Shown piece by piece: positions 7,672-63,895 of a stretch of DNA of 64,000 bases (positions within the stretch are counted from its first letter, which is position 1; each line of letters starts with the position of its first letter). The notes beneath the pieces were generated by a model. That model was not told the DNA's origin, did no database searches, and saw nothing but the letters and a program-made list of their open reading frames with translations. The stretch covers positions 2,976,001 to 3,040,000 of the forward strand of contig OZ210885.1 of assembly GCA_964658305.1 (NCBI GenBank), in the 5' to 3' direction. The DNA comes from Leptogorgia sarmentosa (lineage: Eukaryota). Made by a program: the position numbers and the translations under genes.

Positions 7672-7685
7672 TCAGTGACAGTGAT
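7672..7685. other. Excision footprint of MITE C
   Basis: tcagtga+cagtgat is both copies of the 8-bp TSD tcagtgat, each missing its element-proximal base. Confidence 0.85.
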
Positions 7686-7933: not shown

Positions 7934-9076
7934 CAGTGAACTCTTATCAGTTATCGACCTGGAACGAGGGGTATTCCACAAAAAAATACCCCGAGGAATG
8001 AAATATTCCGAGGGCGCAGCCCGAGGAATATTTCATTCCGAGGGGTATTTTTTTGTGGAATACCCCGAGTGAAAGGTCGATAACAGATATATTATACCGA
8101 AAATTTTTCATCTTCGACACATTCTGTGTTTTGTCGGCCATGTTGCCAAGGAAATTGCCCGCAAAACAGGCCAGGCAGGAGGTCAAAATCCAAGTAGAGG
8201 GGAATATAAAGTGGAATTACCCTCCCAAGGTCAAATCGAGGGAAATACCGTAAAAAATCACACTATCACGTGGTACAAATGCTGTTTTTTCATTGGACAA
8301 TTTGAATTTGAGGTATAATATTATATAATAATATATATATCTGGAACGATAACATTCAGTCATTCAATGCGAAAAACGTGAAGCCTCGGTACTAGTCTTT
8401 TACGCGGTTTGGACGTCAGCCTCAGTCCCTCAAACGTCAAGTTTACGCGGTTTGGACGTCAGTTTCATTCCCCCTCTGCAAACCGTTACGCGGCCAGTAT
8501 AAATGCGAACGCAATCAAGAAAAAAACATTTAAAAAATATCGCCAACGCAATGCAATACATTGTAGGAACAAACTGTTTTGCTCCTAAAATTTATCGCAT
8601 TGCGTTCGCTGTCAGAAAAAGAAAGATAACCGATTCAGACGGTTTTTCTTTGTAAACCATAGCAGTATTTATTAGTATATAAATATTATAAGGTTGGCAA
8701 GTAAACAATAATGTGACTTACTACGGCTTACTAAAACAAGTCGAAAAAATCAACGTCTTGCCAACAAACGTCGCTAAAAAATAGCAGCCCCTACTTCTAG
8801 GATAGTGTTACTAAATACATACAACGTTGAACGTTTTTTGGCAACAAAACGAGTGAAAAAGTCGAAAAAATACGAAAAATTTCTTTCAATTTGCCGTGTC
8901 TCGAAGCTGGATGCCTTCTGACATCGCTGACGCGATCTTTTGTCGGTTTATTTATAACGAAGACAATGACGAAGACAATGACGAAGACAATGACGAACAC
9001 TTCTGTCGTGATACTTTTGTTGGCTTCACTTTTCGCTCTATGTTATCGTTCCAGATATAATATATAGAGTTCACTG
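7934..9076. mobile_element. MITE A: non-autonomous hAT-like element, 765-bp core (here with element B in its left TIR)
   Basis: TIR cagtgaactc.../...gagttcactg (imperfect ~40 bp, intact at 31641). 8-bp TSD ataatccc on both sides. Clean empty site with a single ataatccc at ~44702-44709. Confidence 0.9.
7944..8321. mobile_element. Element B: 378-bp non-autonomous element with a ~145-bp terminal hairpin and no TSD (unclassified)
   Basis: Absent at the equivalent site (31650/31651). Long palindrome ~7945-8090 centred on ccgagggcgcagcccgagg. Short inverted repeat tattatacc...ggtataata. Confidence 0.85.
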
Positions 9077-15000: not shown

Positions 15001-16535
15001 TTGTCAGTAACAAATCACAAAATTCCTACCACCCAATCAGTTATCAATGAGTTCGATTAATTGGTGCCAGGCCTTGTTCGTAAACTTCCAATTGGCTGTG
15101 ATCACTAATAGCTAATGACCAGTAATTCTTGCTACTATAATTTGCAGTAACATTGTAAAATATGTGCTGGCTAAATACACTGATGCATGTCTCCTTTAAT
15201 TCTTGGTTTTCTACTGTCAGTTGCCTTTGCAACTGTTCAACCTTCAGAAGAGACAGACAGTCAGATTGTTACAAATCACAAAACCCAATCACTCATCAAT
15301 GAGTTCGATTAATTGGTGTTCAATGTAGGTAATTCTTGCTACTGTGCCTTAACCAAACCTTAATCATGCTTTCATTGTGCCTTTACCATACCCTTATCCT
15401 GCCATTACCGTGCTCCTTAACTATGCTATTCAACCATGCTCATCAACCATTCTCCTTTAACCATTCTCCTTAACCATGCTTTAACTATGCCTTAATTGTA
15501 CCTTAATCGTGCTGCTCAACTATGCTCCTCAACTGTGCTCTTTAACCATGCTTATGAGTTATGAAACAACTCTCTAACAATGTTCCTTAATTTACCATGC
15601 CTTAACTGTATCCTAACCATACCTTGACCATAATTTAACCGTCCCTTAATCATGCAAAAAACGGTGTCTCAACCATACCCATACTATGCCTTATAACCAT
15701 CCCTTAACCGTACCTTCTTCACCATACCTTAACCATGCCTTAACAGTACCTTAACCATACCTTAACTATGCATAAATGAATAGAATGGGAGTGTTTGTGT
15801 TCTAGTTGGTGCGTAATGATTCGATGATATTCAGCCCTATTAATATGCAATATAGCGATTAAATTGCCAAATATTCTGTACTGTAATGGATTACATATAC
15901 TGAATCTATGTATTGACTATTGACAGACTAAGATCGACGATCACAACATTCTTAGTACATAATTATATCATTACTTACATTAACCTTTTCCAAATCCATA
16001 TGTCGCAAAAGACCTCTGGCAAAAGACAATGATATCTAAATAAATACAGACATATTCAAACAATTATCTGACATTATACATCAAAACGGAAATATTAAAT
16101 TCCAAAATAATAATGAACCTCCTTAAACAGATAATGTTAATGTAATACTACTCCAATTACGCACTGTACTAACAATTCCAAAACTTCACACACAAAAATG
16201 TTTACAAATGACATTACATGGGTTTTTTTCGTTTTTTTCTTCAATACTATCTTCAATATTATTTCGATTACTCAGCATAAAAATCAGTGATCAGCGCTCT
16301 CACAACGAATTTTCAAAATTCCTTAGCGTGAGCTCCGGAATTCCTCAGATATTCCCAAAATTCCTTAAATGACTTGTTTATCCTTGCAACTACCCCCAAA
16401 GTACCCTGCAATCCCGTTCTTTTGCCTCTTGTTTTAAAAACAAGACTCAAATAGTTTCAAAATCGTTAATAAACACAATTTGTGAGGTACCTGAGCTTAC
16501 TAAAGTATATACAAGATAAAATGGGATAGAATGAG

Positions 16536-17013
16536 CAGTGGCGTAGCGAAGCCATTCCGATAGGGGGGGTGTAAAGCAAAATATTTTACCGACCTAAATA
16601 GGTTTGGGCACGACAGGGCCAGATTATTTGGCGGGGAGGGCGAGTCTCACGAGACGCCACCATGGTTGGCGTCGAGCGAGAAAATTTTGTGAATTTAGAG
16701 CCTCTAGATCGCCGGAAACGGCCATTTCAGAGTGTTAACCAAAGCCTTAACACTCAGAATAGAGTCTAGAGGTCTTAGATGTAGTACAACCACAGCTTGC
16801 GAACTAATCGCACACGGACATAGACAACAGACATATACTTTTACATATTTTACTTTTCTACTCTCTCTGTGATTTAATGACATAAATTGAAAATTTACCG
16901 ACCCTTTGGCTTCAAAACCGACCACAATTCATTTACCGACCATTTTCAAAAAAATTGGGGGGGTGTCACACCCCCCACACCCCCCACACCCCCCCCCCCT
17001 CGCTACGCCCCTG
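16536..17013 (+). mobile_element. MITE D, left copy (478 bp, hAT-like)
   Basis: TIR cagtggcgtagcga/tcgctacgcccctg with G/C-run subterminal regions. Confidence 0.92.
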
Positions 17014-17330
17014 AATACTACGCTGAATGTGTGCTTTACAAAGATATTTTAATTTGTGAATAAGACAGTACTCAATATATGTGCACTTGTCAATCTTTTA
17101 CATTCTATATTCTCACTCAGCTTAGTGTTAGGCTATTGAAATTATGAAAATAGATCATTTTCAATACTCGCTGTTCACACAATTTGAACACAACTGATTT
17201 CAAAAGATAATTTCTTATATAATGTAGAACACGAATATGTGAATATTCTTAAATATATTGCAAAATTAGCTAAATAAATATCAAAGCACTAACTTGATTG
17301 TTGCGTTTAATATTCATATTTAATTTCTAG

Positions 17331-17563
17331 GTTACAGACTCAATGTGACAATTTTGATGACAAAAGTGGTGTCTGACTGGCTTGCCTGTATATTAGAATG
17401 TGTCAAAGAGCCTTGCTGTCGATCAATCAATTATAAAAAGATACTGATAGCTCAGAATGAATCGAATTGTGAAATGTTGCATAATACGGTCCACAACTCT
17501 TCTCAGAAATCTTTACAAGCAAATTTTTCTTATGACCATGTTTATCTCAGTAATCCTCAAAAG
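17331..17563 (+). CDS. Captured exon 1: PAN/apple-like cysteine domain of a fibrinogen-related protein gene fragment
   Basis: Acceptor tttctag, donor AAG|gtaaaa. Translates (G)YRLNVTILMTKVVSDWLACILECVKEPCCRSINYKK...NCEML...YDHVYLSNPQK, with the C-x3-C...C-x-S-x-N-Y...C-E PAN-like pattern. Phase 1 to phase 0. Confidence 0.8.
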
Positions 17564-17590
17564 GTAAAAATAATTCACTACGCATAAAGG

Positions 17591-17975
17591 TACTACGATT
17601 TGTCGAGCACAATTCGGAGTCTGGCGTATGTAATCGGGTGAACACGCGCGAGAAAGTCGCATTTCAAATTACGATTCAAACTTTACACCCAGGAATTACA
17701 TGCAGAGGTCTAACTGTTGTACCCATTTTTGTGCGCATGCTCGGCAAGTTACTTGATGCGTACATCTGATTGGATGACGACCAAATTTGAACTTGCCGAG
17801 TTGATCATTTTTTAGCCAGGCCGCATTAAAAAAGTGGGCACATGAAAATGCCACTTTTTAATATTTAGTTAGACCTCTGTCTGATATATACTCTGTGCTC
17901 TTAACGAAGTAGAATGATGGCATACGTCTTTTTTCATACGTCTGAATGCGAATTGTACCGACTAATCGTAGCGTG
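17591..17975. mobile_element. Degenerate MITE in intron 1 of the cargo
   Basis: Imperfect inverted ends ctacgatttgtcg..acaattcg / cgaattgt..cgactaatcgtag; boundaries approximate. Confidence 0.5.
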
Positions 17976-18453
17976 TAAACGTATCTTGAAAGTGCACATG
18001 TCTAAAATCTTGCACTAACAAAGTGTAAAGATCAAGATCACATAATTGAAAAACGCACCATGACCAATGTCTCTTTGAATACTAAACGAATGTAAAAAAC
18101 ATTGGTTGGAAATAATTTGTTTCGTCAGATGTATTTGATAGAGTTCTAGAAAAAATCTTGAAAAATTTCAAATAAATCAACATCGTCTATAATAAGACGA
18201 TGAACTTCCGTCGACTTGACGAATTCTGATTTATCATTGAGGTGATGAGTTCACATGATGCCATACAATCGATGCCAGTCTATAGTATACTCTCGAATTA
18301 TCTTTCCAGTATACAACATCACCGAACATTTTTGTTCTCCTTATTTCGCATTAAACCTGTTTCATGCGAAACAGAATCTATTCGGTTTTTAGAAATTTTA
18401 TTACCAAAAAGAATAAGATTATCCAAGAATACATTATTAGTGTCCATTTATAG

Positions 18454-18502
18454 GAATACAATGAAAGCTGCTTTTCGAAGGTCCTAAATGGCAATATAAA
18501 AG
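18454..18502 (+). CDS. Captured exon 2: 49-bp linker exon (EYNESCFSKVLNGNIK)
   Basis: Acceptor catttatag, strong donor AAAG|gtaagt. Phase 0 to phase 1, exactly what is needed to join exons 1 and 3 in frame. Confidence 0.75.
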
Positions 18503-18634
18503 GTAAGTGATATGCGATGATCTCTTAGAGTCCATTTTGGGTCAAAGTATTTTTACTTTTAATTAATAGCTATAATAAACAACCTTAACGATCTCAAAAT
18601 TTCAAAATCATCGAAGTTTGAAATAGAGGGATAT

Positions 18635-20003
18635 CAGGGCCTGCGCGAACGGAGGGAAAAGGGGGTATTATCCCCCCCCCCCCCCCCAATGATATGGCAT
18701 ATAGTGCCCTATTAATTCTTTCCAGTATAACTTGGACATTGAGAGGACAGTAGTAAATAGTGGTATTATCACTTATGAATTGGTGTTACGCACAGATTTC
18801 GCCGTTATAGTACCCTGCGAGCAGAGCCTTACAGTAAATACCAAGATTGGTAACAATAAAAATCAGGGCTGCCTGCAACTTCTTTCTGGGGCATGGGGCA
18901 CCATCCCTCTTTCGGGGTAAGGTAATTTTATGCTCGATCGAATAACTCGATTATTGCATTTTGGGGCCCCTCAAAACATAGGTCCGGGGTAAATTGCCCA
19001 TCCTCCTTAACGATGCGGTCGTGATAAAAATCAATATTGATCGCAAAACGTGTTTCGTGTGGATCAGAAACGTCAACAAAATGCGAACTGGGAACAGTAG
19101 TATATTCCAGTGCCAGGGCATTGGGCCCGTGTATGTGGTGGCTTACAAGTTCAATATTCATTTATCTCAGCTTCGTGGAGCAGAATTTAGAAGTTATAGG
19201 CGCTCAACGCTGTCTGAAATGGACATTTCCGGGTTTGTAGCAGGGATTATTCTAAGGTGCAGTGATAACCAATTTGTGCAGTGATAAATGAGAATTGTGC
19301 AGTGATAAAATACATTTTGTGCAGTGAGTAAAATATGTTATCCCATGGTTATTCATCATTTATTAGAATTTGGGAATAACTTTAAGCATATACAACAGCA
19401 ATAGTTTCATAACTTTACATATTTTAGCAAAAAGCTAAATAGGAAAATAGGAAACAGTTTGATGTTCTGAATTGGGCAGTCAGACCTTTTCCAATACAAC
19501 TTTATATTCACATATTTCTATATTTTGTTGTGCTTTTGTGCAGTGATAAAATTTCCTTAGAATAATCCCTGGTTTGTAGAGAATTTAAATGTTCAATGGT
19601 GGCGCCTCGAACAGAACAAAACAATTATACACACTAGAGAAATTTGGCCCCGCTAGTAAAAGTCCCTTTTCGTCTGAAAATCAGCGAAATTCATGCTGAA
19701 ATTGCAGGAAGTCAAGTTTAGGGAGCTCAAAGATCAAACAAAATTTTGTTGGACCCCCTTTAACGTAGCTACATTTCTTTATTGTTTCATAATTATTTTC
19801 CTTTCCTTTCCATCCTTCCTATTTTATAATGATATTTCCACCCTTCATTAAAGTCCCTTTTCGTGTTTGCCCCACTGAACAACCTTAAAAAAGGCCCTGC
19901 AAAGAATTTTGCTTTTTATGGTGCGATACAAAACACGTGACATCAACATGTGCACTTTTTATTGAATTGTACCCCCATTATGAAAATGGACGCGCCGGCC
20001 CTG
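18635..20003. mobile_element. MITE E (hAT-like, 1369 bp including nested F) in intron 2 of the cargo
   Basis: Termini cagggcctgcgcg/cgcgccggccctg; 8-bp TSD agggatat. Confidence 0.85.
19241..19571 (+). mobile_element. MITE F (331 bp, hAT-like) nested in E
   Basis: TIR cagggattattctaagg; TSD gtttgtag; internal tgcagtgataa repeats. Confidence 0.92.
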
Positions 20004-20085
20004 AGGGATATTATAAAATGATATTATAACATCTATTCTAAGTAAAATAATAGTAGGCAGTAATAACATGAAGCACAGTTGAACG

Positions 20086-20410
20086 CAGGGATTATTCTAA
20101 GGAAATTTTATCACTGCACAAAAGCACAAAAAAATATAAAAATATGTGAATATAAAGTTGTGTTGGCATGGAAAAGGTCTGACTGCCCAATTCAGAACAT
20201 CAAACTGTTTCCTATTTTCCTATTTAGCTTTTTGCTAAAATATGTAAAGTTATGAAACTATTACTGTTGTATATGCTTAAAGTTATTCCCAAATTCTAAT
20301 GAATGATGAATAACATATTTTATTCACTGCACAAAATGTATTTTATCACTGCACAATTCTCATTTATCACTGCACAAATTGGTTATCACTGCACCTTAGA
20401 ATAATCCCTG
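20086..20410 (-). mobile_element. MITE F, second copy, inverted (325 bp)
   Basis: Same TIR; TSD gttgaacg; approximate reverse complement of 19241-19571. Confidence 0.92.
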
Positions 20411-20469
20411 GTTGAACGATGAGCAGGTGAATTAAACCGTGTTGATTTAAACCGTCCTTTTTATTACAG

Positions 20470-20847
20470 CAAAAGATTGCGCTGATCTTTATAAGGAAGG
20501 TCACACAACAAATGGTGTTTATTTCATTGATCCAGACGGCAAAGGCGCATTTAAAGTAAGATGTGATATGACGACATCAGGAGGGGGTTGGACGATCATT
20601 CAAAGACGTGTTGATGGTAGTGTAGATTTCTACCGTAACTGGAAAGATTACAAAAATGGTTTTGGTGATCCAACAGGCGAATATTGGCTTGGTCTGGACA
20701 AAATCAACCGACTAACAAATGTCAGTACAAAAGTCATTCGATTCGACCTTTGGGACACAACAGGAAACACGAAGTACGCTGAATACAGCTTCTTTGCCAT
20801 CGCTTCAGAAGATGCCAAATATAAATTGAGATTGGATACATATTCAG
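20470..20847 (+). CDS. Captured exon 3: N-terminal part of a fibrinogen C-terminal (FReD/FBG) domain, ficolin/tenascin/MFAP4-like
   Basis: Acceptor ttttattacag, donor TCAG|gtaac. KDCADLYKEGHTTNGVYFIDPDGKGAFKVRCDMTTSGGGWTIIQRRVDGSVDFYRNWKDYKNGFGDPTGEYWLGLDKI...YKLRLDTYSG carries the canonical FReD motifs. Confidence 0.95.
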
Positions 20848-20884
20848 GTAACACAGTTTAAAGAACGAGACAATGGTTGACACT

Positions 20885-21353
20885 CAGTGGCGTAGCGAAG
20901 CCATTCCGATAGGGGGGGGTGTAAAGCAAAATATTTTACCGACCTAAATAGGTTTGGGCACGACAGGGCCAGATTATTTGGCGGGGAGGGCGAGTCTCAC
21001 GAGACGCCACCATGGTTGGCGTCGAGCGAGAAAATTTTGTGAATTTAGAGCCTCTAGATCGCCGGAAACGGCCATTTCAGAGTGTTAACCAAAGCCTTAA
21101 CACTCAGAATAGAGTCTAGAGGTCTTAGATGTAGTACAACCACAGCTTGCGAACTAATCGCACACGGACATAGACAACAGACATATACTTTTACATATTT
21201 TACTTTTCTACTCTCTCTGTGATTTAATGACATAAATTGAAAATTTACCGACCCTTTGGCTTCAAAACCGACCACAATTCATTTACCGACCATTTTCAAA
21301 AAAATAGGGGGGGTGTCACACCCCCCACACCCCCCCCCCTCGCTACGCCCCTG
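20885..21353 (+). mobile_element. MITE D, right copy (469 bp), direct orientation
   Basis: Near-identical to 16536-17013; the differences I saw are in the G/C runs plus one SNP. Confidence 0.92.
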
Positions 21354-21988
21354 AGAATGAGCGACTTATCATCTCCTGAGCCGGACCGGAAGCGCACATT
21401 CGCGCAATTTATCAGAAACTATAATTATGTAAATTAACTATAATCACCATTTCTTAAATTTTAGTTTGCTGTGACATGTGTTTCACAGGCATTTTACCAC
21501 TAAGATAAAGAATTACCTTATTATTAATTAGTAATTCTTTAGCTCAGGGCATTTTACCAAAGGCTTTTCTCACTGAGCTAAAGAATTACTGGAGAGAGTG
21601 GCTTTTCTCGAAATATTAAAATTCCTTAGAAAATTCCTTAAAAATTGAACTCCTTAAAAAAATCCTTAAAACTTTGCTAAATTCCTATTTCTGAGGAAAA
21701 ATCCTTAGAAGTGAGAGCACTGTCAGTGATAAAAATATATATTCAAGCAGCTGGGAAAATTGAGGAAAATTGAGGTGGAAAATTGCTGGAAAATTGAGGA
21801 AATTGCAACAGCTGGGAAATTTGTGGCGCATGCGCTAGATTTGGCTTGCGTGGAATCCCACGAATAATGAACTCGCGCGCGAATTTCGAATGTCGTGGAA
21901 GCATAACAATAAGAAATTCCTATTCAAACTAATTAAATATCCATGATCCCGATGACGTCATTAGCAGTATATAATCCCCAGTGAACTC

Positions 21989-22366
21989 TTATCAGTTATC
22001 GACCTGGAACGAGGGGTATTCCACAAAAAAATACCCCGAGGAATGAAATATTCCGAGGGCGCAGCCCGAGGAATATTTCATTCCGAGGGGTATTTTTTTG
22101 TGGAATACCCCGAGTGAAAGGTCGATAACAGATATATTATACCGAAAATTTTTCATCTTCGACACATTCTGTGTTTTGTCGGCCATGTTGCCAAGGAAAT
22201 TGCCCGCAAAACAGGCCAGGCAGGAGGTCAAAATCCAAGTAGAGGGGAATATAAAGTGGAATTACCCTCCCAAGGTCAAATCGAGGGAAATACCGTAAAA
22301 AATCACACTATCACGTGGTACAAATGCTGTTTTTTCATTGGACAATTTGAATTTGAGGTATAATAT
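21989..22366. mobile_element. Element B, second copy at the same site in MITE A
   Basis: Identical to 7944-8321. Confidence 0.85.
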
Positions 22367-22572
22367 TATATAATAATATATATATCTGGAACGATAACAT
22401 TCAGTCATTCAATGCGAAAAACGTGAAGCCTCGGTACTAGTCTTTTACGCGGTTTGGACGTCAGCCTCAGTCCCTCAAACGTCAAGTTTACGCGGTTTGG
22501 ACGTCAGTTTCATTCCCCCTCTGCAAACCGTTACGCGGCCAGTATAAATGCGAACGCAATCAAGAAAAAAAC

Positions 22573-23177
22573 CAGTGCTCTCACTTCTAAGGATTTTTCC
22601 TCAGAAATAGGAATTTAGCAAAGTTTTAAGGATTTTTTTAAGGAGTTCAATTTTTAAGGAATTTTCTAAGGAATTTTAATATTTCGAGAAAAGCCACTCT
22701 CTCCAGTAATTCTTTAGCTCAGTGAGAAAAGCCTTTGGTAAAATGCCCTGAGCTAAAGAATTACTAATTAATAATAAGGTAATTCTTTATCTTAGTGGTA
22801 AAATGCCTGTGAAACACATGTCACAGCAAACTAAAATTTAAAAAATGGTGATTATAGTTAATTTACATAATTATAGTTTCTGATAAATTGCGCGAATGTG
22901 CGCTTCCGGTCCGGCTCAGGAGATGATAAGTCGCTCATTCTATCCCATTTTATCTTGTATATACTTTAGTAAGCTCAGGTACCTCACAAATTGTGTTTAT
23001 TAACGATTTTGAAACTATTTGAGTCTTGTTTTTAAAACAAGAGGCAAAAGAACGGGATTGCAGGGTACTTTGGGGGTAGTTGCAAGGATAAACAAGTCAT
23101 TTAAGGAATTTTGGGAATATCTGAGGAATTCCGGAGCTCACGCTAAGGAATTTTGAAAATTCGTTGTGAGAGCGCTG
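22573..23177 (-). mobile_element. MITE C in inverted orientation, inserted in MITE A
   Basis: 605-bp reverse complement of 30781-31385 with a new 8-bp TSD aaaaaaac. Site is empty in the other A copies. Confidence 0.93.
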
Positions 23178-23270
23178 AAAAAAACATTTAAAAAATATCG
23201 CCAACGCAATGCAATACATTGTAGGAACAAACTGTTTTGCTCCTAAAATTTATCGCATTGCGTTCGCTGT

Positions 23271-26200
23271 CAGAAAATGAAAGATAACCGATTCAGACGG
23301 TTTTTCTTTGTAAACCATAGCAGTATTTATTAGTATATAAATATTATAAGGTTGGCAAGTAAACAATAATGTGACTTACTACGGCTTACTAAAACAAGTC
23401 GAAAAAATCAACGTCTTGCCAACAAACGTCGCTAAAAAATAGCAGCCCCTACTTCTAGGATAGTGTTACTAAATACATACAACGTTGAACGTTTTTTGGC
23501 AACAAAACGAGTGAAAAAGTCGAAAAAATACGAAAAATTTCTTTCAATTTGCCGTGTCTCGAAGCTGGATGCCTTCTGACATCGCTGACGCGATCTTTTG
23601 TCGGTTTATTTATAACGAAGACAATGACGAAGACAATGACGAAGACAATGACGAACACTTCTGTCGTGATACTTTTGTTGGCTTCACTTTTCGCTCTATG
23701 TTATCGTTCCAGATATAATATATAGAGTTCACTGATAATCCCCCTGTGGATTCATGTGATTCGTCATCATTCCATGACAGCACTTGCTCCGTCCTCATGG
23801 TATTTACCACTGACCAGGCTCAAATCTGAGCCCACTGCCGTTTTCACACCCCTGTCTGCGAGACTGCGTGCGCAGATACAAAAATATGGTTTGATTCCTC
23901 CACCCTCAAAAAATTGTACTGTTCCCCAGAATTAAGACAATCGGAAGAAAGGACAGACACCAGGGGCCGGTTGTATCAAAGGCGTCAAGCTTAAGCGCTG
24001 GATAAGTCGAAAATATCCAACGAAATTATGAAGTATTGACTACAAGGAAACTAAACTTTTCTGTGTAAACATAACAACTATGCATAGAGATAGAACTACA
24101 CATTTAGTTGATAAAATTTAAATTCAATTATTTACAAAATGAATAGAAGTGTTTTTAAAATTTTGCTTATCCACCGTTTAAGCTAAACGTCTTTGGTACA
24201 ACCGGGCAGAACGCGAGCACATGGATTATGGAAATCGATGAGCAAAAACATGCGCGCGCAGCACAAATTATTGTTCGACCGCACCCCTCATTTTCTAAAA
24301 TGACCTGGAGGTTGCGAAATCCCCCCGGAATTATCATCCGGACAGAAACAAATCGAGATTTCGACTATACATAGTACCGCGCAAAAGACTGGGTCGAGTG
24401 AACTCTGGGAAATCCTTGTGACGTCAAGAATAGTGTGCTGACTCGCTGGCGCTCGGCAGCAATGAAACTGAAAACGTATTGTGACTTGTCAAGGACTACA
24501 GTTTACGGAGGCAAACATTCTCGACAGTTCCACTGGTTGCCTCCGGATTCTTTCGTCTTCCGGTTTCTGTGAAAAGAGTTCATCAACATATTTACTTACT
24601 TAGCATTTTGATAAAGAAATGTATCTTCAAAAACGTGTTAATTTGATAATATAGTTCCAAGCAACACAACCTTCACAACCTAACCTATATCAACTGATTT
24701 CATTGTTATCTCATACCGGGTAACTATTGAAATCCGCTAGTTTGTCAGAGCCGCCGCGCTCTTTTCCTTTTAAACTGATGGAAAACTATCACATCACACT
24801 AGTTTGAACTTTGCCTGATTTACATGCATGTTTTAAAGACATGCATGAGTGTTGGTTAGACTATTCTGCCTTAACTTAAGTCATGACAAACGATCGATTT
24901 TTCTTCACGTTTAATCTCTCTTTTAAAAGCAAAACGAATCTATCTTTTAATACGACGCCCGAAAAAATAGTCCCCGCCCCTTATACCAATGTCAAATATT
25001 CACTTCCGGTTATCCGTGATTGTAGTAAATGAATGACGTATCATTGACATTTGAGAACACTACCATATTAGGATGCATGCAAGGATGATAGACACTAAGG
25101 CACTAGTTACAGTGATAGATGTATTCTGGAGTAAAGCTTTGTGGTTAAATAATAAATATAAATAACGTAAAGGATATAATTATATTACAGTGATTTAAAA
25201 TATTATATAAAAAATATCAATTTTTACATCCTTTACAACGAGTATTATTATAAGAACCAGGCAATGGATGAGCTATTATAAAGCTATATATACATTTTAC
25301 TTGTTTTTAAATCTACCACTCGCATATCACGGGCTGGAAACCGTGGTATTTGAAATTCAAAGAAATTCAAAAATTCGGTGCATCTCAATTCACGAGACTC
25401 AGTACGAAGGTCAAGACATAATTGCTCGTTTTTTTTTACCCCATTCTTTTTTTTAAAGGTAGGCGTGCTCTACTCTTCTTAGTGTTTCCCGTAGAAATAT
25501 ATAATTTGTAACCCTTCTCGGACAAATATATTTTGCCAAGGCAAAAAAATTGTCCTGAGCACATGATGCGGGACATCGTATTGGCGCAGATGGTGTTGCT
25601 TGGTAGGGCTCCTGAGAAGTGGAGAAGAAAATGTTATTAAAATTACTTTTCAATCAATCACATTACTCACCAAAATATCATATATTCACATTTTTGAATT
25701 GCTAAATTTGAACTCACCTTTTGTTCTTCTCCAGTTTGTCCTTTGGAATTTTCCATGTTTTCCACTGGTCGCCTCCGGTTTTGTTCTTCATATCTGTAAA
25801 GAGAGTTCATCGAAATATTTATTACTTGGCATTTTGATAAACACATTTATCTTCAAAACACAACCCTCACAAATAAAGCAACCTTCCAAACTATCAACCG
25901 ATTTATTGTACATATCGCATACCGGGTAATGATTGAAATCTATATTTAATGTACAGACTGCGTGCACGATAGTTAATGATTTAAGAAAACAAACTGACTG
26001 CTCATTACAATTTAGTGATTTAAAAGCAATTAATGGGATCAAACGATCAAACGATCTTCTCGCCCGTATTTACAGGTCCGTAACTCCATCATTCCTTAGA
26101 ATGAGTGACAGATGAAAAAGAGGCCACTGAGTAAACAACTACCAAGGTGTAAACATATCACACTAGTCTATCCCATGCACTCATGATGACATCATAGCTT

Positions 26201-29200: not shown

Positions 29201-31941
29201 GCTTGCTAATCATTGCAGGTTCATTTTGCAGACAACTCAGTCATCTGCTAGCAGATAACTGGATTTTCTGCATGTTGTGTGAAGCTCTTAGCCAATCAAA
29301 TTGCTATTACCAATTACAATGTATAATAACTTAAGTTACATGCAAAATAATACAGTTAGCATTGCATAAATTGTAAATACATCAATACTGTACGTACCTG
29401 CTTTAATCGTTGGTTTCCTTCAACGAGTATTTTATTTTGCTTTCTTAGCGTTGTTACCTCCTTACAGAAGATACAGAAAGATTGTCAGTAACAAATCACA
29501 AAATTCCTACCACCCAATCAGTTATCAATGAGTTCGATTAATTGGTGCCAGGCCTTGTTCGTAAACTTCCAATTGGCTGTGATCACTAATAGCTAATGAC
29601 CAGTAATTCTTGCTACTATAATTTGCAGTAACATTGTAAAATATGTGCTGGCTAAATACACTGATGCATGTCTCCTTTAATTCTTGGTTTTCTACTGTCA
29701 GTTGCCTTTGCAACTGTTCAACCTTCAGAAGAGACAGACAGTCAGATTGTTACAAATCACAAAACCCAATCACTCATCAATGAGTTCGATTAATTGGTGT
29801 TCAATGTAGGTAATTCTTGCTACTGTGCCTTAACCAAACCTTAATCATGCTTTCATTGTGCCTTTACCATACCCTTATCCTGCCATTACCGTGCTCCTTA
29901 ACTATGCTATTCAACCATGCTCATCAACCATTCTCCTTTAACCATTCTCCTTAACCATGCTTTAACTATGCCTTAATTGTACCTTAATCGTGCTGCTCAA
30001 CTATGCTCCTCAACTGTGCTCTTTAACCATGCTTATGAGTTATGAAACAACTCTCTAACAATGTTCCTTAATTTACCATGCCTTAACTGTATCCTAACCA
30101 TACCTTGACCATAATTTAACCGTCCCTTAATCATGCAAAAAACGGTGTCTCAACCATACCCATACTATGCCTTATAACCATCCCTTAACCGTACCTTCTT
30201 CACCATACCTTAACCATGCCTTAACAGTACCTTAACCATACCTTAACTATGCATAAATGAATAGAATGGGAGTGTTTGTGTTCTAGTTGGTGCGTAATGA
30301 TTCGATGATATTCAGCCCTATTAATATGCAATATAGCGATTAAATTGCCAAATATTCTGTACTGTAATGGATTACATATACTGAATCTATGTATTGACTA
30401 TTGACAGACTAAGATCGACGATCACAACATTCTTAGTACATAATTATATCATTACTTACATTAACCTTTTCCAAATCCATATGTCGCAAAAGACCTCTGG
30501 CAAAAGACAATGATATCTAAATAAATACAGACATATTCAAACAATTATCTGACATTATACATCAAAACGGAAATATTAAATTCCAAAATAATAATGAACC
30601 TCCTTAAACAGATAATGTTAATGTAATACTACTCCAATTACGCACTGTACTAACAATTCCAAAACTTCACACACAAAAATGTTTACAAATGACATTACAT
30701 GGGTTTTTTTCGTTTTTTTCTTCAATACTATCTTCAATATTATTTCGATTACTCAGCATAAAAATCAGTGATCAGCGATTCAGCGCTCTCACAACGAATT
30801 TTCAAAATTCCTTAGCGTGAGCTCCGGAATTCCTCAGATATTCCCAAAATTCCTTAAATGACTTGTTTATCCTTGCAACTACCCCCAAAGTACCCTGCAA
30901 TCCCGTTCTTTTGCCTCTTGTTTTAAAAACAAGACTCAAATAGTTTCAAAATCGTTAATAAACACAATTTGTGAGGTACCTGAGCTTACTAAAGTATATA
31001 CAAGATAAAATGGGATAGAATGAGCGACTTATCATCTCCTGAGCCGGACCGGAAGCGCACATTCGCGCAATTTATCAGAAACTATAATTATGTAAATTAA
31101 CTATAATCACCATTTTTTAAATTTTAGTTTGCTGTGACATGTGTTTCACAGGCATTTTACCACTAAGATAAAGAATTACCTTATTATTAATTAGTAATTC
31201 TTTAGCTCAGGGCATTTTACCAAAGGCTTTTCTCACTGAGCTAAAGAATTACTGGAGAGAGTGGCTTTTCTCGAAATATTAAAATTCCTTAGAAAATTCC
31301 TTAAAAATTGAACTCCTTAAAAAAATCCTTAAAACTTTGCTAAATTCCTATTTCTGAGGAAAAATCCTTAGAAGTGAGAGCACTGTCAGTGATAAAAATA
31401 TATATTCAAGCGCTGGGAAAATTGAGGAAAATTGAGGTGGAAAATTGCTGGAAAATTGAGGAAATTGCAACAGCTGGGAAATTTGTGGCGCATGCGCTAG
31501 ATTTGGCTTGCGTGGAATCCCACGAATAATGAACTCGCGCGCGAATTTCGAATGTCGTGGAAGCATAACAATAAGAAATTCCTATTCAAACTAATTAAAT
31601 ATTCATGATCCCGATGACGTCATTAGCAGTATATAATCCCCAGTGAACTCTATATAATAATATATATATCTGGAACGATAACATTCAGTCATTCAATGCG
31701 AAAAACGTGAAGCCTCGGTACTAGTCTTTTACGCGGTTTGGACGTCAGCCTCAGTCCCTCAAACGTCAAGTTTACGCGGTTTGGACGTCAGTTTCATTCC
31801 CCCTCTGCAAACCGTTACGCGGCCAGTATAAATGCGAACGCAATCAAGAAAAAAACATTTAAAAAATATCGCCAACGCAATGCAATACATTGTAGGAACA
31901 AACTGTTTTGCTCCTAAAATTTATCGCATTGCGTTCGCTGT
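23271..31941. repeat. Array copy 3 (8671 bp)
   Basis: Length accounts exactly: net -114 deletion, -63 VNTR, +607 MITE C, +8 scar, -1, -378 (no element B). Confidence 0.95.
30781..31385 (+). mobile_element. MITE C (605 bp)
   Basis: TIRs and tcagtgat TSD, with an extra cagcgatt at the left junction. Confidence 0.93.
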
Positions 31942-32078
31942 CAGAAAAAGAAAGATAACCGATTCAGACGGTTTTTCTTTGTAAACCATAGCAGTATTTA
32001 TTAGTATATAAATATTATAAGGTTGGCAAGTAAACAATAATGTGACTTACTACGGCTTACTAAAACAAGTCGAAAAAA

Positions 32079-35000
32079 TAGGTACACAACGTGTACATGT
32101 ATCTGCGTCTATATGTAGCTTGGTTACCAGCGATGTATAAAATGGTTTACAGCTAGGGAATAGGCGAATAGCGCAAATACTAATTTGTGAGGTTGTGCTT
32201 GGTTAAAACGTGAAACGTATTCAATACTTGATATAACCTTTCATGACTCGCATTCCGGAATTCGCGCGATCATCAAATTCCATAATGAATTTAAACTTGA
32301 CGAAATATGATATCGCATTTTATGCTATTGCGTCCTTAAAATATAGACAGCGCTTTGCGATTGTTTGTAAAAAATGTGGCTTTCTAAAAACCAAATTTAC
32401 TCTTTTCAAAACCATATTATAATAATATATTTATATACACTATATTCTATCCATTCATGCAGCATTTGCCTATGCGCTCAAGTGTATGATCGGTATGCGC
32501 GTAGGTTCAAAACGGAATACTTGAAACTATATATGATTTCGTTTGTTTTGTCTCGCGCTTAACAAACGCGTTTCATTACAAGCTACAAAATCTATATTCC
32601 TGGGATTGAATGTTTCAACCATTCTGTACAGTATGGCGAAGGGTCAAAATATAGTAGAAATTCCGTGATCACAATGACACCGCGGGTCCGCGTGCAGTCC
32701 AAACATGTACAAATATGTCAGTGCCGACACGCTAAAGTATCGTAGGGAAAATATACGAGCAATTTTGTCAAGACATAAACCTCTTTCAATCATAACGTGT
32801 ATAATATTCGCTCATTTCGCTGTGTGTGTTTAAGGTAATATAATGTATAATTTGCGTCATAATATTTCTGCTTTGATGATCTAAATTCCATAGCAAACCT
32901 CTTTAATATCTTTAAACTCAATGCCAATGTATGATTTGCGTCCTGATATTTTTGCGTATCTGCGTATAAATCTGCGGCACGCAGTGTCTCATTTCTATCC
33001 TACTTTTGATATCCGAACAACCCGTAAAACCTGCTGTAATTCTGTCATGTTTACACTTACCAGATCAAGATAGGTGTCCGTATAAAATGGCGACAAAAGT
33101 AGGATAGAAATGAGAAAAAAGTACAATATTTTAAACGATTTACCAAGCAAGCTTCGAAGTTCGGAGTATTTGCAAATGGCGGGACATCAGAAATCAGAAT
33201 CGACATGCGAAAAGCTCTGCTCTGATTGGCTACAAGCTAACAGCACGAATCTCTGATTGGCTAGAAGCTAACAGCACGAAGCTCTGATTGGCTGCAAGCA
33301 CGGTTACAGTTACATTTACAGTTACAACACGATAGCAATATATCTGCGTCACTACGTCACGCAGATACAAAAATAGGTACACAAAGTGTACATGTATCTG
33401 CGCCTATGTAGCTTGGTTACCAGCGATGTATAAAATGATTTATTGCCAGGAACAGGCGAATAGCGCAAATACTTATTTCTTTTTTGACGTGAGGTTTTGC
33501 ATGGTTAAGACGTGAGACGTATTCAATACTTGATATAAGCTTTCATGACTTCTCGCATTCCGGAATTCGCGCGATTCATATCAAATTGCATAATGAATTT
33601 AAACTTGACGAAATATGATATCGCATTTTATGCTATTGCGTCCTTAATACTTAATAGACAGCGCTTTGCGATTGTTTGTGAAAAATGTGGCTTACTAAAA
33701 ACCAAATTTACTCTTTTCAAAACCATATTATAATAATATATTTATATACACTATATTCTATCCATTCATGCAGCATTTGCCTAGACACTCAAGTGTATGA
33801 TGGGTATGCGCGTAGGTTCAAAACAGAATACTTGAAACTATATATGATTTCGTTTGTTTTGTCTCGCGCTTAACAAACGCGTTTCATTACAAGCTACAAA
33901 ATCTATTTTCCTGGGATTGAATGTTTCAACCATTCTGTATGGCGAAGCTTCAAAGTATAGTAGATATTCCGTGATCACAATGACAACGCGTGCAGTCCAA
34001 ACATGTGAATGTGTCAGTGCCGACACGCTAAAGTATCGTAGGGAAAATATACGAGCAATTTTGTCAAGACATAAACCTCTTCATAACGTGTATAATATTC
34101 GCTGTGCGTGTTTAAGATAAATTACCGTGTATTAAATACAATGTATAATTTGCGTCATGATATTTCTGCTTTGATGATCTAAATTCCATAGCAAACCTCT
34201 TTAATATCTTTAAAACAAGGCCGTCGGAAGCGGGGGGGCTGGGGGGGCTTGAGCCCCCCCAATAATTTTCACATGTACAAAAAAAACCCAAAACAAAAGA
34301 CTCAGACTAGAAAAAATGCGACCCTGATCTTCAGAATTCTAGAAAATGTACTTCTCAAAACGCTGGAAATCCTATTTTCGGGGATGCTAGATTTCAAAAT
34401 TTTCTACGTGGGGCATACCCCCAAGCAGCGCGAACGCCTTTGGCATTCGCCTAGTGCTCAGGCTTTTGGCGAGCCCCCCCAATGTATATTTGCTTCCGAC
34501 GGCCTTGTAAAAGCAATGCCAATGTATGATTTGCGTCGTGATATTTTTGCGTATCTGCGTATAAATCTGCGGCACGCAGTGTCTCATTTCTATCCTACTT
34601 TTGATATCCAAACAACCCGTAAAACCTGCTGTAATTCTGTCATGTTTACCCTTACCAGATCAGGATATGTCTCCGTATAAAATGGCGACAAAAGTAGGAT
34701 GGAAATGAGAAAAAAGTACAATATTTTAAACGATTTACCAAGCAAGCTTCGAAGTTCGGAGTATTTGCAAATGGCGGGACATCAGAATTCAGAATCGACA
34801 TGCGAAAAGCTCTGCTCTGATTGGGTACAAGCTAACAGCACGAAGCTCTGATTGGCTAGAAGCTAACAGCACGAAGCTCTGATTGGCTACAAGCACGGTT
34901 ACAGTTACAGTTACAGTTACAGTTACAGCTAACAACACGATAGCAATATATCTGCGTCACTACGTCACGCAGATACAAAAATAGGTACACAAAGTGTACA

Positions 35001-36095
35001 TGTATCTGCGCCTATGTAGCTTGGTTACCAGCGATGTATAAAATGATTTATTGCTAGAGAATAGGCGAATAGCGCAAATACTTATTTCTTTTTTGACGTG
35101 AGGTTGTGCATGGTTAAGACGTGAGACGTATTCAATACTTGATATAAGCTTTCATGACTTCTCGCATTCCGGAATTCGCGCGATTCATATCAAATTGCAT
35201 AATGAATTTAAACTTGACGAAATATGATATCGCATTTTATGCTATTGCGTCTTTAAAATAGAGACACTGAGACAGCGCTTTGCGATTGTTTGTGAAAAAT
35301 GTGGCTTTCTAAAAACCAAATTTACTCTTTTCAAAACCATATTATAATAATATATTTCCATGCGCTATATTCTATCCATTCATGCAGCATTTGCCCAGAC
35401 GCTCAAGTGTATGATCGGTATGCGCGTAGGTTCAAAACAGAATACTTGAAACTATATATGATTTCGTTTGTTTTGTCTCGCGCTTAACAAACGCGTTTCA
35501 TTACAAGCTCATTTCGCTGTGTGTGTTTAAGGTAATACAATGTATAATTTGCGTCATGATATTTCTGCTTTGATGATCTAAATTGCATAGCAAACCTCTT
35601 TAATATCTTCAAAAGCAATGCCAATGTATGATTTGCGTCGTGATATTTTTGCGAATCTGCGTATAAATCTGCGGCACGCAGTGTCTCATTTCTATCCTAT
35701 TTTTGATATCCAAACAACCCGTAAAACCTGCTGTAATTCTGTCATGTTTGCACTTACCAGATCAAGATAGGTCTCCGTATAAAATGGCGACAAAAATAGG
35801 ATAGAAATGAGAAAAAAAGTACAATATTTTAAACGATTTGGTCGCTTCGAAGTATTTACAAATGGCGAACATGAGACACGACGCCGCACGAAATCAACAT
35901 CGGAAATTATCGATATGCGAAAAGCTCTGCTCTGATTGGGTACAAGCTAACAGCACGAAGCTCTGATTGGCTAGAAGCTAACAGCACGAAGCTCTGATTG
36001 GCTGCAAGCACGGTTACGGTTACAGTTACAGTTACAGTTACAGTTACAAGACGATAGCAATATATCTGCGTCACTACGTCACGCAGATACAAAAA
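32079..36095 (-). mobile_element. Head-to-tail trimer of a Helentron-associated non-autonomous element (HINE/DINE-1-like)
   Basis: Units start at ~32079, 33374 and 34982. On the minus strand each has a T-run, 5' subTIR gtatctgcg with a nearby inverted copy, (gtaact)n microsatellite, 31-bp tandem repeats, 3' subTIR cgcagatac and a 3' stem-loop gtacac-NNN-gtgtac. Inserted in an A/T run that is empty in the other A copies. Confidence 0.85.
34216..34507. mobile_element. 292-bp MITE with a 5-bp TSD, inside the second HINE unit
   Basis: Perfect 16-bp TIR caaggccgtcggaagc; TSD taaaa; absent from HINE units 1 and 3. Confidence 0.9.
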
Positions 36096-43848: not shown

Positions 43849-44453
43849 CAGCGCTCTCACAACGAATTTTCAAAATTCCTTAGCGTGAGCTCCGGAATTC
43901 CTCAGATATTCCCAAAATTCCTTAAATGACTTGTTTATCCTTGCAACTACCCCCAAAGTACCCTGCAATCCCGTTCTTTTGCCTCTTGTTTTAAAAACAA
44001 GACTCAAATAGTTTCAAAATCGTTAATAAACACAATTTGTGAGGTACCTGAGCTTACTAAAGTATATACAAGATAAAATGGGATAGAATGAGCGACTTAT
44101 CATCTCCTGAGCCGGACCGGAAGCGCACATTCGCGCAATTTATCAGAAACTATAATTATGTAAATTAACTATAATCACCATTTTTTAAATTTTAGTTTGC
44201 TGTGACATGTGTTTCGCAGGCATTTTACCACTAAGATAAAGAATTACCTTATTATTAATTAGTAATTCTTTAGCTCAGGGCATTTTACCAAAGGCTTTTC
44301 TCACTGAGCTAAAGAATTACTGGAGAGAGTGGCTTTTCTCGAAATATTAAAATTCCTTAGAAAATTCCTTAAAAATTGAACTCCTTAAAAAAATCCTTAA
44401 AACTTTGCTAAATTCCTATTTCTGAGGAAAAATCCTTAGAAGTGAGAGCACTG
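43849..44453 (+). mobile_element. MITE C (605 bp)
   Basis: TIRs and a perfect tcagtgat TSD. Confidence 0.93.
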
Positions 44454-44710
44454 TCAGTGATAAAAATATATATTCAAGCAGCTGGGAAAATTGAGGAAAA
44501 TTGAGGTGGAAAATTGCTGGAAAATTGAGGAAATTGCAACAGCTGGGAAATTTGTGGCGCATGCGCTAGATTTGGCTTGCGTGGAATCCCACGAATAATG
44601 AACTCGCGCGCGAATTTCGAATGTCGTGGAAGCATAACAATAAGAAATTCCTATTCAAACTAATTAAATATTCATGATCCCGATGACGTCATTAGCAGTA
44701 TATAATCCCC

Positions 44711-62485: not shown

Positions 62486-63895
62486 CTGAATGCAGAGAAC
62501 TTAATTTGACTAACGACAGCTGAAAATAAAAGGCAAGAAATTATCAAATTATAAACACAAGCGACGACGGTTTTATATATATGGCCGGCACGTGTACAAT
62601 TAAAGTTTATCTAATATTTATTTATTATAGCATGATTAACTCGAATTGGATTGTGGAGAGGTATTCCATTTTAAAAACTAATGGATCTATCATCTATTTT
62701 AATCTACTTTAATCATTTTAAAAGAGATTTTGTAAATTTGTAGATATTCATGTGTAATAAATCTGTAAAAACAAGTTCTTAAATGCATAAATAATTTGTG
62801 GTGTTTTCATCCAATTAAAATACAGGCATGGCGTAATGACACCTCGTAAATTTTCTACAAATTATATATATAAACCACAAAAATGTTAATCAGTTCAATC
62901 ACATGTGGTTTAAACTCGGTCCTGAGACAATCACGAATTCTTGTAGCATGTGTGCATGTGAATGGATCACTTCTACACTTCAATCCAGTGCCGTAGCCAG
63001 AACGATTAGTAATCTCTTTTAAAATAAATTGTTTCTATGGTAGTAGCTATGTGAACACGAATGGCGTTGTTAAGATTAAACTGCAGTTTGAAATGCGACT
63101 GTCAGTGTGTGCCCACTTGATTACATCCGCCAGAGTGGATTTACTTACACTGTACACAAAATATGAAATTCCAGAGGCACAGAAATATCAAGTTCGTCAA
63201 ACTAAATATTTCATTGAATGCATAATTAATTTATGCAGGTTCATTTTTTTTTTGGGAAACCGGCTGTATACAGGTGCAGTAGTCTGGAATAATGTACCAA
63301 GTTTACCTTTTTTGCGAAGGTATCAAAGGGGCAAAGGGGCTAAAGGGGCCCTGCATAAAAATAAAACCGAAATATATATAGTAATCTAGTAATCCCAAAT
63401 ACCCTAACAGAGTGTTGATTTTGCCTTTTCAAGTTTCTTACATTTCAAAAAATTTCCGGGGGGAGAATGCCTCCCGACCCCTCTAACACTTTTTACCGCT
63501 ATCAAGAGCTCCAAAGTCAAATTTTGTCCCGGGTCCCCAAATTGCTCAGTGTGGCCCAGCTTTTGCGTTATTCGTTTACATGTTAATTCTATTTAAGGTC
63601 AAATCGTTTTGAATGATTCACGCAGCAGCTTAAAACTGGTTACCGTATCTAGGCCTACTTCTTGGTTGACAATCAAAATTAACACGTGCACAACAGCAGA
63701 GATCAGACACGGATACTTTTTTAATGCGTTGGGCATAGTTGTTACTTTCAAAATATAACAAGAATAGTGAAATAGCCGAGTTTTTTCGGTGTGATAGCTG
63801 AAATAAACTTCAAAGTGTGAACCAAGATGGCGCTTATTGGCAGATTGTTTAGACGTCGTGTGCAAACGAAGAATAATTTTGAGTCAATCAAAGTA

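What the first reader, a model, noticed from the sequence alone, without database searches (positions are those of the whole stretch)
16536..21353. Bacterial-style composite transposon in an animal: two MITEs mobilising a host fibrinogen-domain gene segment
Seen: two near-identical ~470-bp MITE D copies in direct orientation bracket 3.87 kb of unrelated genic DNA. Only the outer ends share an 8-bp TSD (agaatgag); the inner flanks (aatactac, ttgacact) match neither it nor each other. The exact empty site is visible in three other MITE C copies in this window. Established: 8-bp TSDs with CAG termini are typical of hAT elements, paired Ac/Ds ends can macrotranspose intervening DNA in maize, and IS-flanked composite transposons are the bacterial analogue. 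Inference: two D copies landed in introns of a host gene and the segment then moved as one unit. An alternative is integration of a D-cargo circle into a solo D by recombination. Unlike Pack-type capture, the cargo lies between two complete elements.
Basis: partly seen in the sequence, partly recalled or inferred. Interest (0 to 1): 0.88.

Follow-up and report, generated by a model that had tools for sequence, protein, structure and literature searches.

The report
Transposon pair moved a gene fragment
In a coral-like animal, two near-identical short jumping elements bracket a 3.9-kb piece of a host fibrinogen-domain gene and share one insertion scar at their outer ends only, so they likely jumped together and copied the gene piece to a new place, a process known from maize but seldom caught in animals.

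Summary
D1 (16536-17013) and D2 (20885-21353) are direct, near-identical elements. AGAATGAG flanks only the outer ends, and three other copies of the host MITE show the empty site. The cargo is a native anthozoan, likely octocoral, gene piece: PAN, linker and first fibrinogen exons with compatible splice phases, lacking the start and last exons. Public contigs add three hints. Cargo and cargo|D2 contigs are about 1.5 times as deep as paralogue contigs, as for three copies against two. A multi-copy contig continues past TTGACACT without D. D1 and D2 share letters seen in only 1-3% of family depth. Best reading: one D hopped locally within the gene, then the outer ends moved the segment by hAT-type macrotransposition (about 0.6). 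Integration of a circle into a solo D is not excluded (about 0.2). The donor locus, spanning reads and the transposase were not seen. The mechanism is known from maize hAT elements and Drosophila FB-flanked TEs. This scan noted two similar cases in other genomes. The copy is likely a non-functional fragment.

The parts
16292..21722 (+). Host MITE C (605 bp when empty; TIR CAGYGCTCTCAC, own TSD TCAGTGAT), split by the composite after its base 244
   Evidence: intact copies at 22573-23177 (-), 30781-31385, 43849-44453
16528..16535 (+). Outer TSD, left copy (AGAATGAG)
16536..17013 (+). MITE D1, 478 bp, 14-bp TIRs, hAT-type non-autonomous element
17014..20884 (+). Cargo: 3871 bp of a host PAN + fibrinogen-domain (FReD) gene, starting and ending in introns
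17014..17021 (+). Left inner flank AATACTAC (predicted right-hand TSD copy of D1 at the donor)
   Evidence: TSD status inferred, not seen
17331..17563 (+). PAN-domain exon, splice phases 1-0
   Evidence: PF00024 23.5 bits, cut-off 21.4; splice sites; relatives up to 79% identical
18454..18502 (+). 49-nt linker exon, phases 0-1
   Evidence: same place and similar residues in P0152 and P0053 (the alignment alone is weak, E 0.84)
18635..20003 (.). hAT-like element in a cargo intron (TSD AGGGATAT), holding a nested MITE E at 19241-19571 (TSD GTTTGTAG)
20086..20410 (.). Second MITE E, opposite orientation to the first, TSD GTTGAACG
20470..20847 (+). Fibrinogen-C exon, N-terminal half of the domain (Pfam positions 2-131 of 221), phases 1-1, open frame
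   Evidence: PF00147 E 1.5e-46; 88-90% identical to P0123/P0126
20848..20884 (+). Start of the next intron, ending in the right inner flank TTGACACT (20877-20884; predicted left-hand TSD copy of D2 at the donor)
   Evidence: a multi-copy contig matches 20849-20884 and runs on without D
20885..21353 (+). MITE D2, 469 bp
21354..21361 (+). Outer TSD, right copy (AGAATGAG)
31017..31024 (+). Empty target site in the MITE C of array unit U3 (also 44085-44092 + and 22934-22941 -)

Best explanation
A D-cargo-D block with one shared 8-bp target duplication sits inside a MITE in a young tandem array, and it was likely pasted there in one step by a hAT-type transposase, supplied in trans, that would have gripped the left end of D1 and the right end of D2. 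Inferred order: (1) a D element inserted in an intron of a PAN + fibrinogen-domain gene; (2) a copy of that same element hopped 3.9 kb within the gene, giving two direct copies, each with its own TSD (AATACTAC, TTGACACT); (3) the outer ends moved the 4.8-kb block into MITE C of array unit U2, duplicating AGAATGAG; (4) the donor survived, by transposition during replication or repair from the sister or homologue, so the event duplicated three exons. The new copy lacks the first and last exons and is probably a non-functional fragment. Shown: the anatomy, the empty sites, the exon order. Inferred: steps 1-4 and the transposase.
For: Outer-only 8-bp TSD and 3 of 3 empty sites. Both cargo junctions fall exactly at TIR tips, not inside an element. 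Exon order and phases match octocoral PAN-linker-fibrinogen proteins P0152, P0053 and P0080. Cargo intron sequence occurs almost unchanged in other samples: X4 553 bp with 2 differences; X5 166, 237 and 192 bp with 1, 1 and 0. One X1 contig runs from 20801 to 20909 without a difference at depth 339.5, against 220.8 and 440.9 for paralogue contigs at the same place. The cargo:other-contig depth ratio is about 3:2 at 4 places (240:163, 291:173-191, 284:183, 340:221). The best unit for 27 low-copy X1 depths is about 106. This is what a diploid donor carrying D2 plus one extra copy would give. In X1 and X2 a multi-copy contig matches 20849-20884 and continues for >=255 letters without D: the right inner 8-mer is native intron. 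At 3 of 5 listed D positions the letter shared by D1 and D2 makes up only 1.1-3.0% of X1 depth, about 6-16 units; the two lowest are 5.7 and 7.1, near 3 copies x 2 D. So D1 and D2 are sisters. The window shows recent hAT-type activity: an excision-type footprint of MITE C in unit U1, and a new reversed copy with a new TSD at 22573-23177 that is identical to the U3 copy. The same logic is documented for Tam3L at maize White Cap (10.1101/082677, passages) and for Ac macrotransposons (PMC9910405, passages).
Against: The donor locus was not seen: no genome is held, so the TSDs of D1 and D2 at the donor are unproven. The X1 junction contig has only 25 letters on the D side, below the tool's 31-letter rule for a bridge; the stretch I laid held only 28 D letters. 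X2, from the same sample, shows no contig across that junction by depth arithmetic; X4 has no cover there and X8 laid nothing. The tool warns that depth is no copy number, and X1 may be the sample the window came from. Left-hand cargo contigs are shallower (2.2-2.8 units at unit 110; these pieces are also more AT-rich). No transposase was found among 143 window ORFs scanned. The fit of the inner 8-mers to the T2/A7 pattern of the 7 true TSDs is weak: about 0.29 by chance, my arithmetic.
Confidence: 0.62

Rival explanations
1. A solo D first inserted into MITE C (making the AGAATGAG TSD). A circle of D plus cargo then integrated into it by homologous recombination. The circle could come from recombination between D1 and D2 at the donor, or from a single donor D whose sister-chromatid ends inserted intramolecularly at AATACTAC; that route gives the same inner junctions without D1 ever standing at the donor.
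For: It gives the same final anatomy. It also fits the three-copy depth of cargo|D2. Circle-to-solo-repeat integration is proposed for KolobokP (PMC9587614, passage), and alternative Ac transposition makes circles (PMC4270019, passages).
Against: After a crossover, at every position one of the two D copies carries the solo D's letter. D1 and D2 share all three rare letters (16632, 16860, 16924), so the solo D must itself have been of this roughly 1-3% variant. That needs an extra hop of a sibling to this site plus a rare recombination within 470 bp. No solo D at this site was seen in the 3 other MITE C copies.
Confidence: 0.2
2. A break inside a resident solo D was repaired by template switching or gene conversion from the donor's D1-cargo-D2, copying the cargo in without a transposase acting on the pair (gap-filling-like).
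For: Gap filling is the main proposed origin of single-copy animal Pack-TIRs (PMC8277862, passages). D-D homology would guide both switches.
Against: It needs a resident D of the same rare variant and a donor that already has both D copies. The Pack-TIR junctions described there lie inside elements, often with microhomology; here both cargo junctions are exactly at TIR tips.
Confidence: 0.1
3. Misassembly: the array site holds a solo D, the donor holds D1-cargo-D2, and the assembler crossed over through D.
For: The region is a near-identical tandem array.
Against: The assembly separates array units that differ by 0-16 substitutions in about 7.5-8 kb, which suggests long accurate reads, far longer than a 470-bp repeat (inference). 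Cargo contigs are about 1.5 times as deep as paralogue contigs, implying an extra copy beyond a diploid donor.
Confidence: 0.05
4. D is the long terminal direct repeat of a KolobokP-like composite family, and the block is a non-autonomous member.
For: KolobokP has about 450-bp direct repeats with their own TIRs, and solo repeats (PMC9587614, passages).
Against: The TSD is 8 bp, not 3-5. The termini are CAG..CTG, not RR..YY. The interior is a host gene piece with native introns, with no transposase or His-Me nuclease.
Confidence: 0.02

Closest known systems
Tam3L macro-transposon at maize White Cap (10.1101/082677, passages read)
   Same: Natural hAT pair; the outer elements share one 8-bp host-site duplication; intervening host genes copied to a new site; donor kept.
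   Different: There a longer segment with whole genes between kb-sized elements (Tam3Lb 4,460 bp) in a plant, with a selected phenotype. Here 470-bp non-coding MITEs, a three-exon fragment, an anthozoan animal, no known phenotype, donor not seen directly.
Ac/Ds macrotransposons (PMC9910405 and PMC4270019, passages; Huang & Dooner 2008 seen only in reference lists, not held)
   Same: Outer ends of linked hAT elements move intervening DNA, 8-bp TSD, copy number can rise.
   Different: Shown genetically with a known transposase in maize. Here inferred from sequence, transposase unidentified.
Ising TE of Drosophila melanogaster, FB-flanked composite elements (PMC6431247, one passage)
   Same: Animal; host DNA moved between two DNA transposons.
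   Different: Foldback elements, hundreds of kb, found cytologically. Here hAT-type MITEs, 4.8 kb, base-level junctions and empty sites.
KolobokP composite-like transposons (PMC9587614, passages)
   Same: About 450-bp direct repeats with their own TIRs around an interior; solo repeats exist; animals.
   Different: A stable autonomous family with 3-5-bp TSDs, RR..YY ends and its own transposase and nuclease. Here an opportunistic pair with host cargo and an 8-bp TSD.
Pack-TIRs of animals (PMC8277862, passages)
   Same: TIR-element-flanked copies of host sequence, mostly hAT (208 of 370).
   Different: [quoted passage not shown]
Bacterial composite transposons (described in PMC9587614, passage)
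   Same: Two complete elements flank cargo; only the outer ends carry the TSD.
   Different: IS elements encode the transposase; D has only short frames and needs one in trans.

Membership tests
hAT superfamily, non-autonomous (MITE) | Short TIRs of 10-25 bp (PMC3942097, passage) | tested here: met
   14-bp TIRs, 13 of 14 matching
hAT superfamily, non-autonomous (MITE) | 8-bp TSD | tested here: met
   AGAATGAG at the outer ends, with empty sites; a TSD of a solo D copy was not seen
hAT superfamily, non-autonomous (MITE) | Short, non-coding, high copy number | tested here: met
   469-478 bp; longest stop-to-stop frame inside D is 74 codons (not scanned against Pfam); D-body depth in X1 about 575-670 units at two positions (a rough measure)
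hAT superfamily, non-autonomous (MITE) | Autonomous partner with a hAT transposase and the same ends | not testable with these tools
   No genome held; no transposase hit in 143 window ORFs; D 5' pattern absent from metagenome contigs. The likeness of the TIR to Tip-group hATs is recalled, not tested.
Macrotransposon / composite transposon | Two complete elements in direct orientation around foreign DNA | tested here: met
Macrotransposon / composite transposon | One TSD at the outer ends, none around either element, and an empty target site | tested here: met
   (3 of 3 other MITE C copies empty)
Macrotransposon / composite transposon | Cargo collinear with a donor locus that continues beyond both ends | tested here: inconclusive
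   Right side: a multi-copy contig continues past 20884 without D. Left side: one X6 contig aligns from 17019 with 160 other letters before it (weak, next to a skipped repeat). Homologous proteins have further N- and C-terminal parts. The donor itself was not seen.
Macrotransposon / composite transposon | Both elements stood at the donor with their own TSDs | tested here: inconclusive
   cargo|D2 contig at the depth of the cargo body, about 3 units; D1|cargo depth not obtained
Macrotransposon / composite transposon | Transposase-dependent movement of the unit (excision footprint or further copies with other TSDs) | not testable with these tools
   Needs the genome or population long reads
Pack-TIR | Cargo inside one element; parent not linked to the element | tested here: not met
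   Both flanking elements are complete and the junctions are at TIR tips
KolobokP | 3-5-bp TSD, RR..YY termini, internal transposase and His-Me nuclease in autonomous copies | tested here: not met
   8-bp TSD, CAG..CTG ends, host exons inside
Fibrinogen-related domain (FReD) gene with PAN domain | PAN + linker + complete fibrinogen-C domain with signal peptide | tested here: not met
   Only PAN, linker and Pfam positions 2-131 of 221 are present; it is a fragment of such a gene

The most novel reading that the evidence does not exclude
Local hopping of abundant hAT MITEs routinely creates MITE pairs inside genes, and their macrotransposition is a common, overlooked route of exon-module duplication in animals. 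Here it moved a phase-symmetric (1-1) PAN-linker-fibrinogen module of an immune-type gene family that could be spliced in frame into any phase-1 intron it lands in. Pack-TIR surveys would filter such cases out because the parent is linked to the element.
Probability: 0.3. Interest if true: 0.72.

Novelty: new member of a known kind. Interest (0 to 1): 0.47.

Why it matters
It is a very young, base-resolved natural example of a host gene piece apparently moved by two non-autonomous elements in an early-branching animal, with empty sites next to it. The largest survey of TIR-mediated duplication in animals that I read excluded parents linked to TIR elements (PMC8277862, methods passage), so this route may be under-counted. 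A simple signature (two same-family MITEs, outer-only TSD) makes its frequency testable in any long-read assembly, including its share in the expansion of anthozoan fibrinogen-domain gene clusters. This copy itself is probably without function: no start exon, half a fibrinogen domain, and a landing site in a repeat array with no Pfam hit above cut-off.

Tried and rejected
No own genome is held, so the donor, other D copies and the transposase could not be searched. The D 5' 28-mer found 0 hits in metagenome contigs. The PAN exon found 1 locus among 91 candidate stretches (L001, 57%), too short to show the downstream exons. No RNA holder was listed among 18 runs; this says nothing on expression. 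X8 laid nothing and X4 has no cover at the right junction. No tRNA and no Rfam match in the window. Pfam on 143 of 167 listed ORFs (array unit, F3 insert, right part of the window) gave no hit above a curated cut-off; small exons of an enclosing gene could be missed. I first suspected that the last 36 bp of the cargo came from an unrelated locus (note 2), because the contig that continues without D also has other letters before 20849. I set this aside: gene calls that read through this intron in close paralogues end like the window's read-through (P0125 ends ...NTV as the window's frame does; P0121 and P0122 resemble another frame). The upstream difference is unexplained in detail, and the contig's flanks are not in the window. 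I rejected the idea that element F defines the array: the last unit has the empty F site and the unit junction lies near 1654. KolobokP and Pack-TIR membership were rejected as above. Seven literature searches listed no paper on a natural MITE-pair macrotransposon with host exons in a cnidarian; the library lacks most subscription papers and one search was uninformative, so this is weak. Huang & Dooner 2008 and Wang et al. 2022 were not held. PMC10175614 and PMC3169594 passages added nothing. No supplements were read; KolobokP TSD details lie partly in supplements that I did not see.
Full report
Observation. D1 spans 16536-17013 and D2 20885-21353, in the same orientation, 97.5% alike. The differences are one substitution, one G in a G-run and a 10-bp indel in the C-rich 3' tract. 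Each D has 14-bp TIRs with one mismatch; the motif has 5 matches in the window against 0.08 expected. AGAATGAG stands at 16528-16535 and 21354-21361, while the inner flanks are AATACTAC and TTGACACT. The empty site with a single AGAATGAG is present in all 3 other MITE C copies of the window, with 1 mismatch in 200 bp. So 4818 bp were added at this site with an 8-bp duplication.

Setting. The first 45 kb of the window are a tandem array of about 7.5-8-kb units that differ by 0-16 substitutions; the unit with the insert differs from its neighbours U1 and U3 by 2. The event is therefore very young. The same elements show other fresh hAT-type events. MITE C (TSD TCAGTGAT) is gone from unit U1, leaving both TSD copies short of the base next to the element, which resembles the small-deletion footprints described for Ac/Ds (PMC5873905, passages). 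A reversed MITE C copy identical to the U3 copy sits at 22573-23177 with a new TSD. A structural scan found 7 different 8-bp TSDs around CAG..CTG elements in the window. No transposase, tRNA or Rfam family was found.

Cargo. Pfam gives a PAN domain (23.5 bits, cut-off 21.4) and the first 131 of 221 positions of Fibrinogen_C. Splice sites give exons 17331-17563 (phases 1-0), 18454-18502 (0-1) and 20470-20847 (1-1), all on the + strand with open, compatible frames. The same order, PAN then a short linker then fibrinogen, is found in Paramuricea P0152 and Dendronephthya P0053 and P0080. The best named hits of the fibrinogen exon by identity are from octocorals and anemones (67-70%), with unnamed relatives at 78-90%. 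The host is therefore an anthozoan, likely an octocoral (inference). One point against a simple picture: the closest fibrinogen relatives (P0123, P0126, 88-90%) have a signal peptide and no PAN domain, so the family shuffles its N-termini. The cargo lacks the first exon(s) and the second half of the fibrinogen domain. Its introns hold older hAT-like insertions with their own TSDs.

Public contigs. No genome is held, so I used contigs of public runs; 15 of 18 listed runs hold part of the stretch. X1, which may be the source sample, covers the cargo with contigs that show no difference; X4 and X5, other samples, hold cargo intron pieces with 0-2 differences in the closest pieces, and other listed pieces differ more. 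At the right junction, one X1 contig runs 20801-20909 without a difference at depth 339.5. It has 25 letters on the D side, short of the tool's 31-letter rule. X2, the same sample, shows no such contig, X4 has no cover there and X8 laid nothing. A second contig in X1 and X2 (depth about 875 and 684 by my arithmetic on the bins) matches 20849-20884 and continues for at least 255 letters without D. Close paralogues read through into an intron start like the window's (P0125, P0121, P0122).

Depth. The tool warns that depth is no copy number, so this is a hint. Low-copy X1 contigs fit a unit near 106 (27 values; a second minimum near 220). Cargo contigs measure 2.2-3.2 units at unit 110, the lowest in AT-rich pieces. 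At four places the cargo contig is about 1.5 times as deep as another contig at the same place. This suggests three copies, and the cargo|D2 contig has the full depth, so D2 likely stands beside the cargo at more than one locus. D1 and D2 share letters that make up only 1.1-3.0% of family depth at 16632, 16860 and 16924 (5.7, 7.1 and 15.7 units); at two other listed positions their letter is common (44% and 24%). The family has several hundred copies by the same measure. The two D copies are thus sisters, which fits a local hop better than two independent landings.

Mechanism. Shown: the anatomy, the empty sites, the exon order, recent activity of similar elements. Inferred: D inserted in an intron, a copy hopped 3.9 kb, and a transposase in trans then used the two outer ends, with the donor kept. 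The White Cap paper names the same three ingredients for maize hAT elements: transposition during replication, short hops, and pairing of ends of neighbours (10.1101/082677, passages). I put this at about 0.62. The main rival is integration of a D-cargo circle into a solo D (about 0.2). It yields the same map, and a circle with these inner junctions could even arise from a single donor D by sister-chromatid end pairing (my inference). It needs the resident D to be of the same rare variant. Repair-driven copying into a solo D (0.1) has the same need. Misassembly (0.05) is disfavoured by the resolved array and by the extra depth, but no spanning read was seen. The depth of the D1|cargo junction, which I could not obtain, would separate the first two.

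Comparison with what is known. It works like an Ac/Ds or Tam3L macrotransposon and meets the structural tests for one; the donor tests are inconclusive. It is not a Pack-TIR (complete elements, junctions at TIR tips) and not KolobokP (8-bp TSD, CAG..CTG ends, host cargo). Composite movement of host DNA in animals is in print for FB-flanked TEs of Drosophila (PMC6431247, one passage). The Pack-TIR survey of 100 animal genomes has no occurrence of 'composite', 'compound' or 'macrotranspos' in its main text and required parents not associated with TIR elements (PMC8277862). Seven searches listed no cnidarian or MITE-only case with host exons, which is weak evidence given the library's gaps. All papers were seen as passages or listings only. 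This scan's notes hold two similar cases in other genomes, one with gene-less cargo and one with tRNA genes; they are unchecked AI notes and not support.

Verdict. A real, very young composite insertion that duplicated three exons of a host gene, most likely by hAT-type macrotransposition. It is a new member of a known kind, in a lineage and with an element class where my searches found no report. The fragment is probably without function. Interest 0.47; it would rise if such MITE pairs prove a common route of exon duplication in animals.

Noticed in passing
window 1-45862: Tandem array of at least four near-identical units of about 7.5-8 kb (0-16 substitutions between units; unit junction near 1654), made largely of repeats, with no Pfam hit above cut-off.
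   Followed up: partly
window 7672-7685: Excision-type footprint of MITE C in unit U1: both copies of TSD TCAGTGAT remain, each short of the base next to the element.
   Followed up: yes
window 22573-23177: Fourth MITE C copy, reversed, inside element F2, new TSD AAAAAAAC, identical to the U3 copy: likely a recent local hop.
   Followed up: yes
window 30773-30780: Eight extra bases resembling the start of the TIR between the TSD and the left end of MITE C in U3; perhaps the scar of an aborted or nested event.
   Followed up: no
window 7934-9076, 21979-23734, 31641-36422; empty site about 44702-44709: Element F (1143 bp, TIR CAGTGAACTCT, TSD ATAATCCC) in each unit but the last; it contains a 145-bp hairpin, and F3 has lost about 380 bp including it.
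   Followed up: partly
window 32080-36090: A 4-kb insert in F3 flanked by a 6-bp duplication (AAAAAT), built of internal 0.5-1.3-kb repeats with 31-bp and GTTACA minisatellites, without clear TIRs or a Pfam hit above cut-off; class unknown.
   Followed up: partly
window 18635-20003: hAT-like element in the cargo with a nested MITE; an X1 contig joins 18823 to 19850, as an internally shorter family member would.
   Followed up: partly
window about 17620-17900: High-copy repeat(s) in a cargo intron (X1 depth above 100,000 in one bin), with a weak second match at 63068-63134.
   Followed up: no
P0121, P0122, P0124, P0127, P0128: Five close fibrinogen-exon paralogues whose longest contig has the same length (588,944 bp), suggesting a tandem gene cluster of this family in a related assembly.
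   Followed up: no
7 TSDs in the window: All 7 confirmed 8-bp TSDs have T at position 2 or A at position 7, like the target preference recalled for Ac-group hAT elements (the label is from memory).
   Followed up: partly
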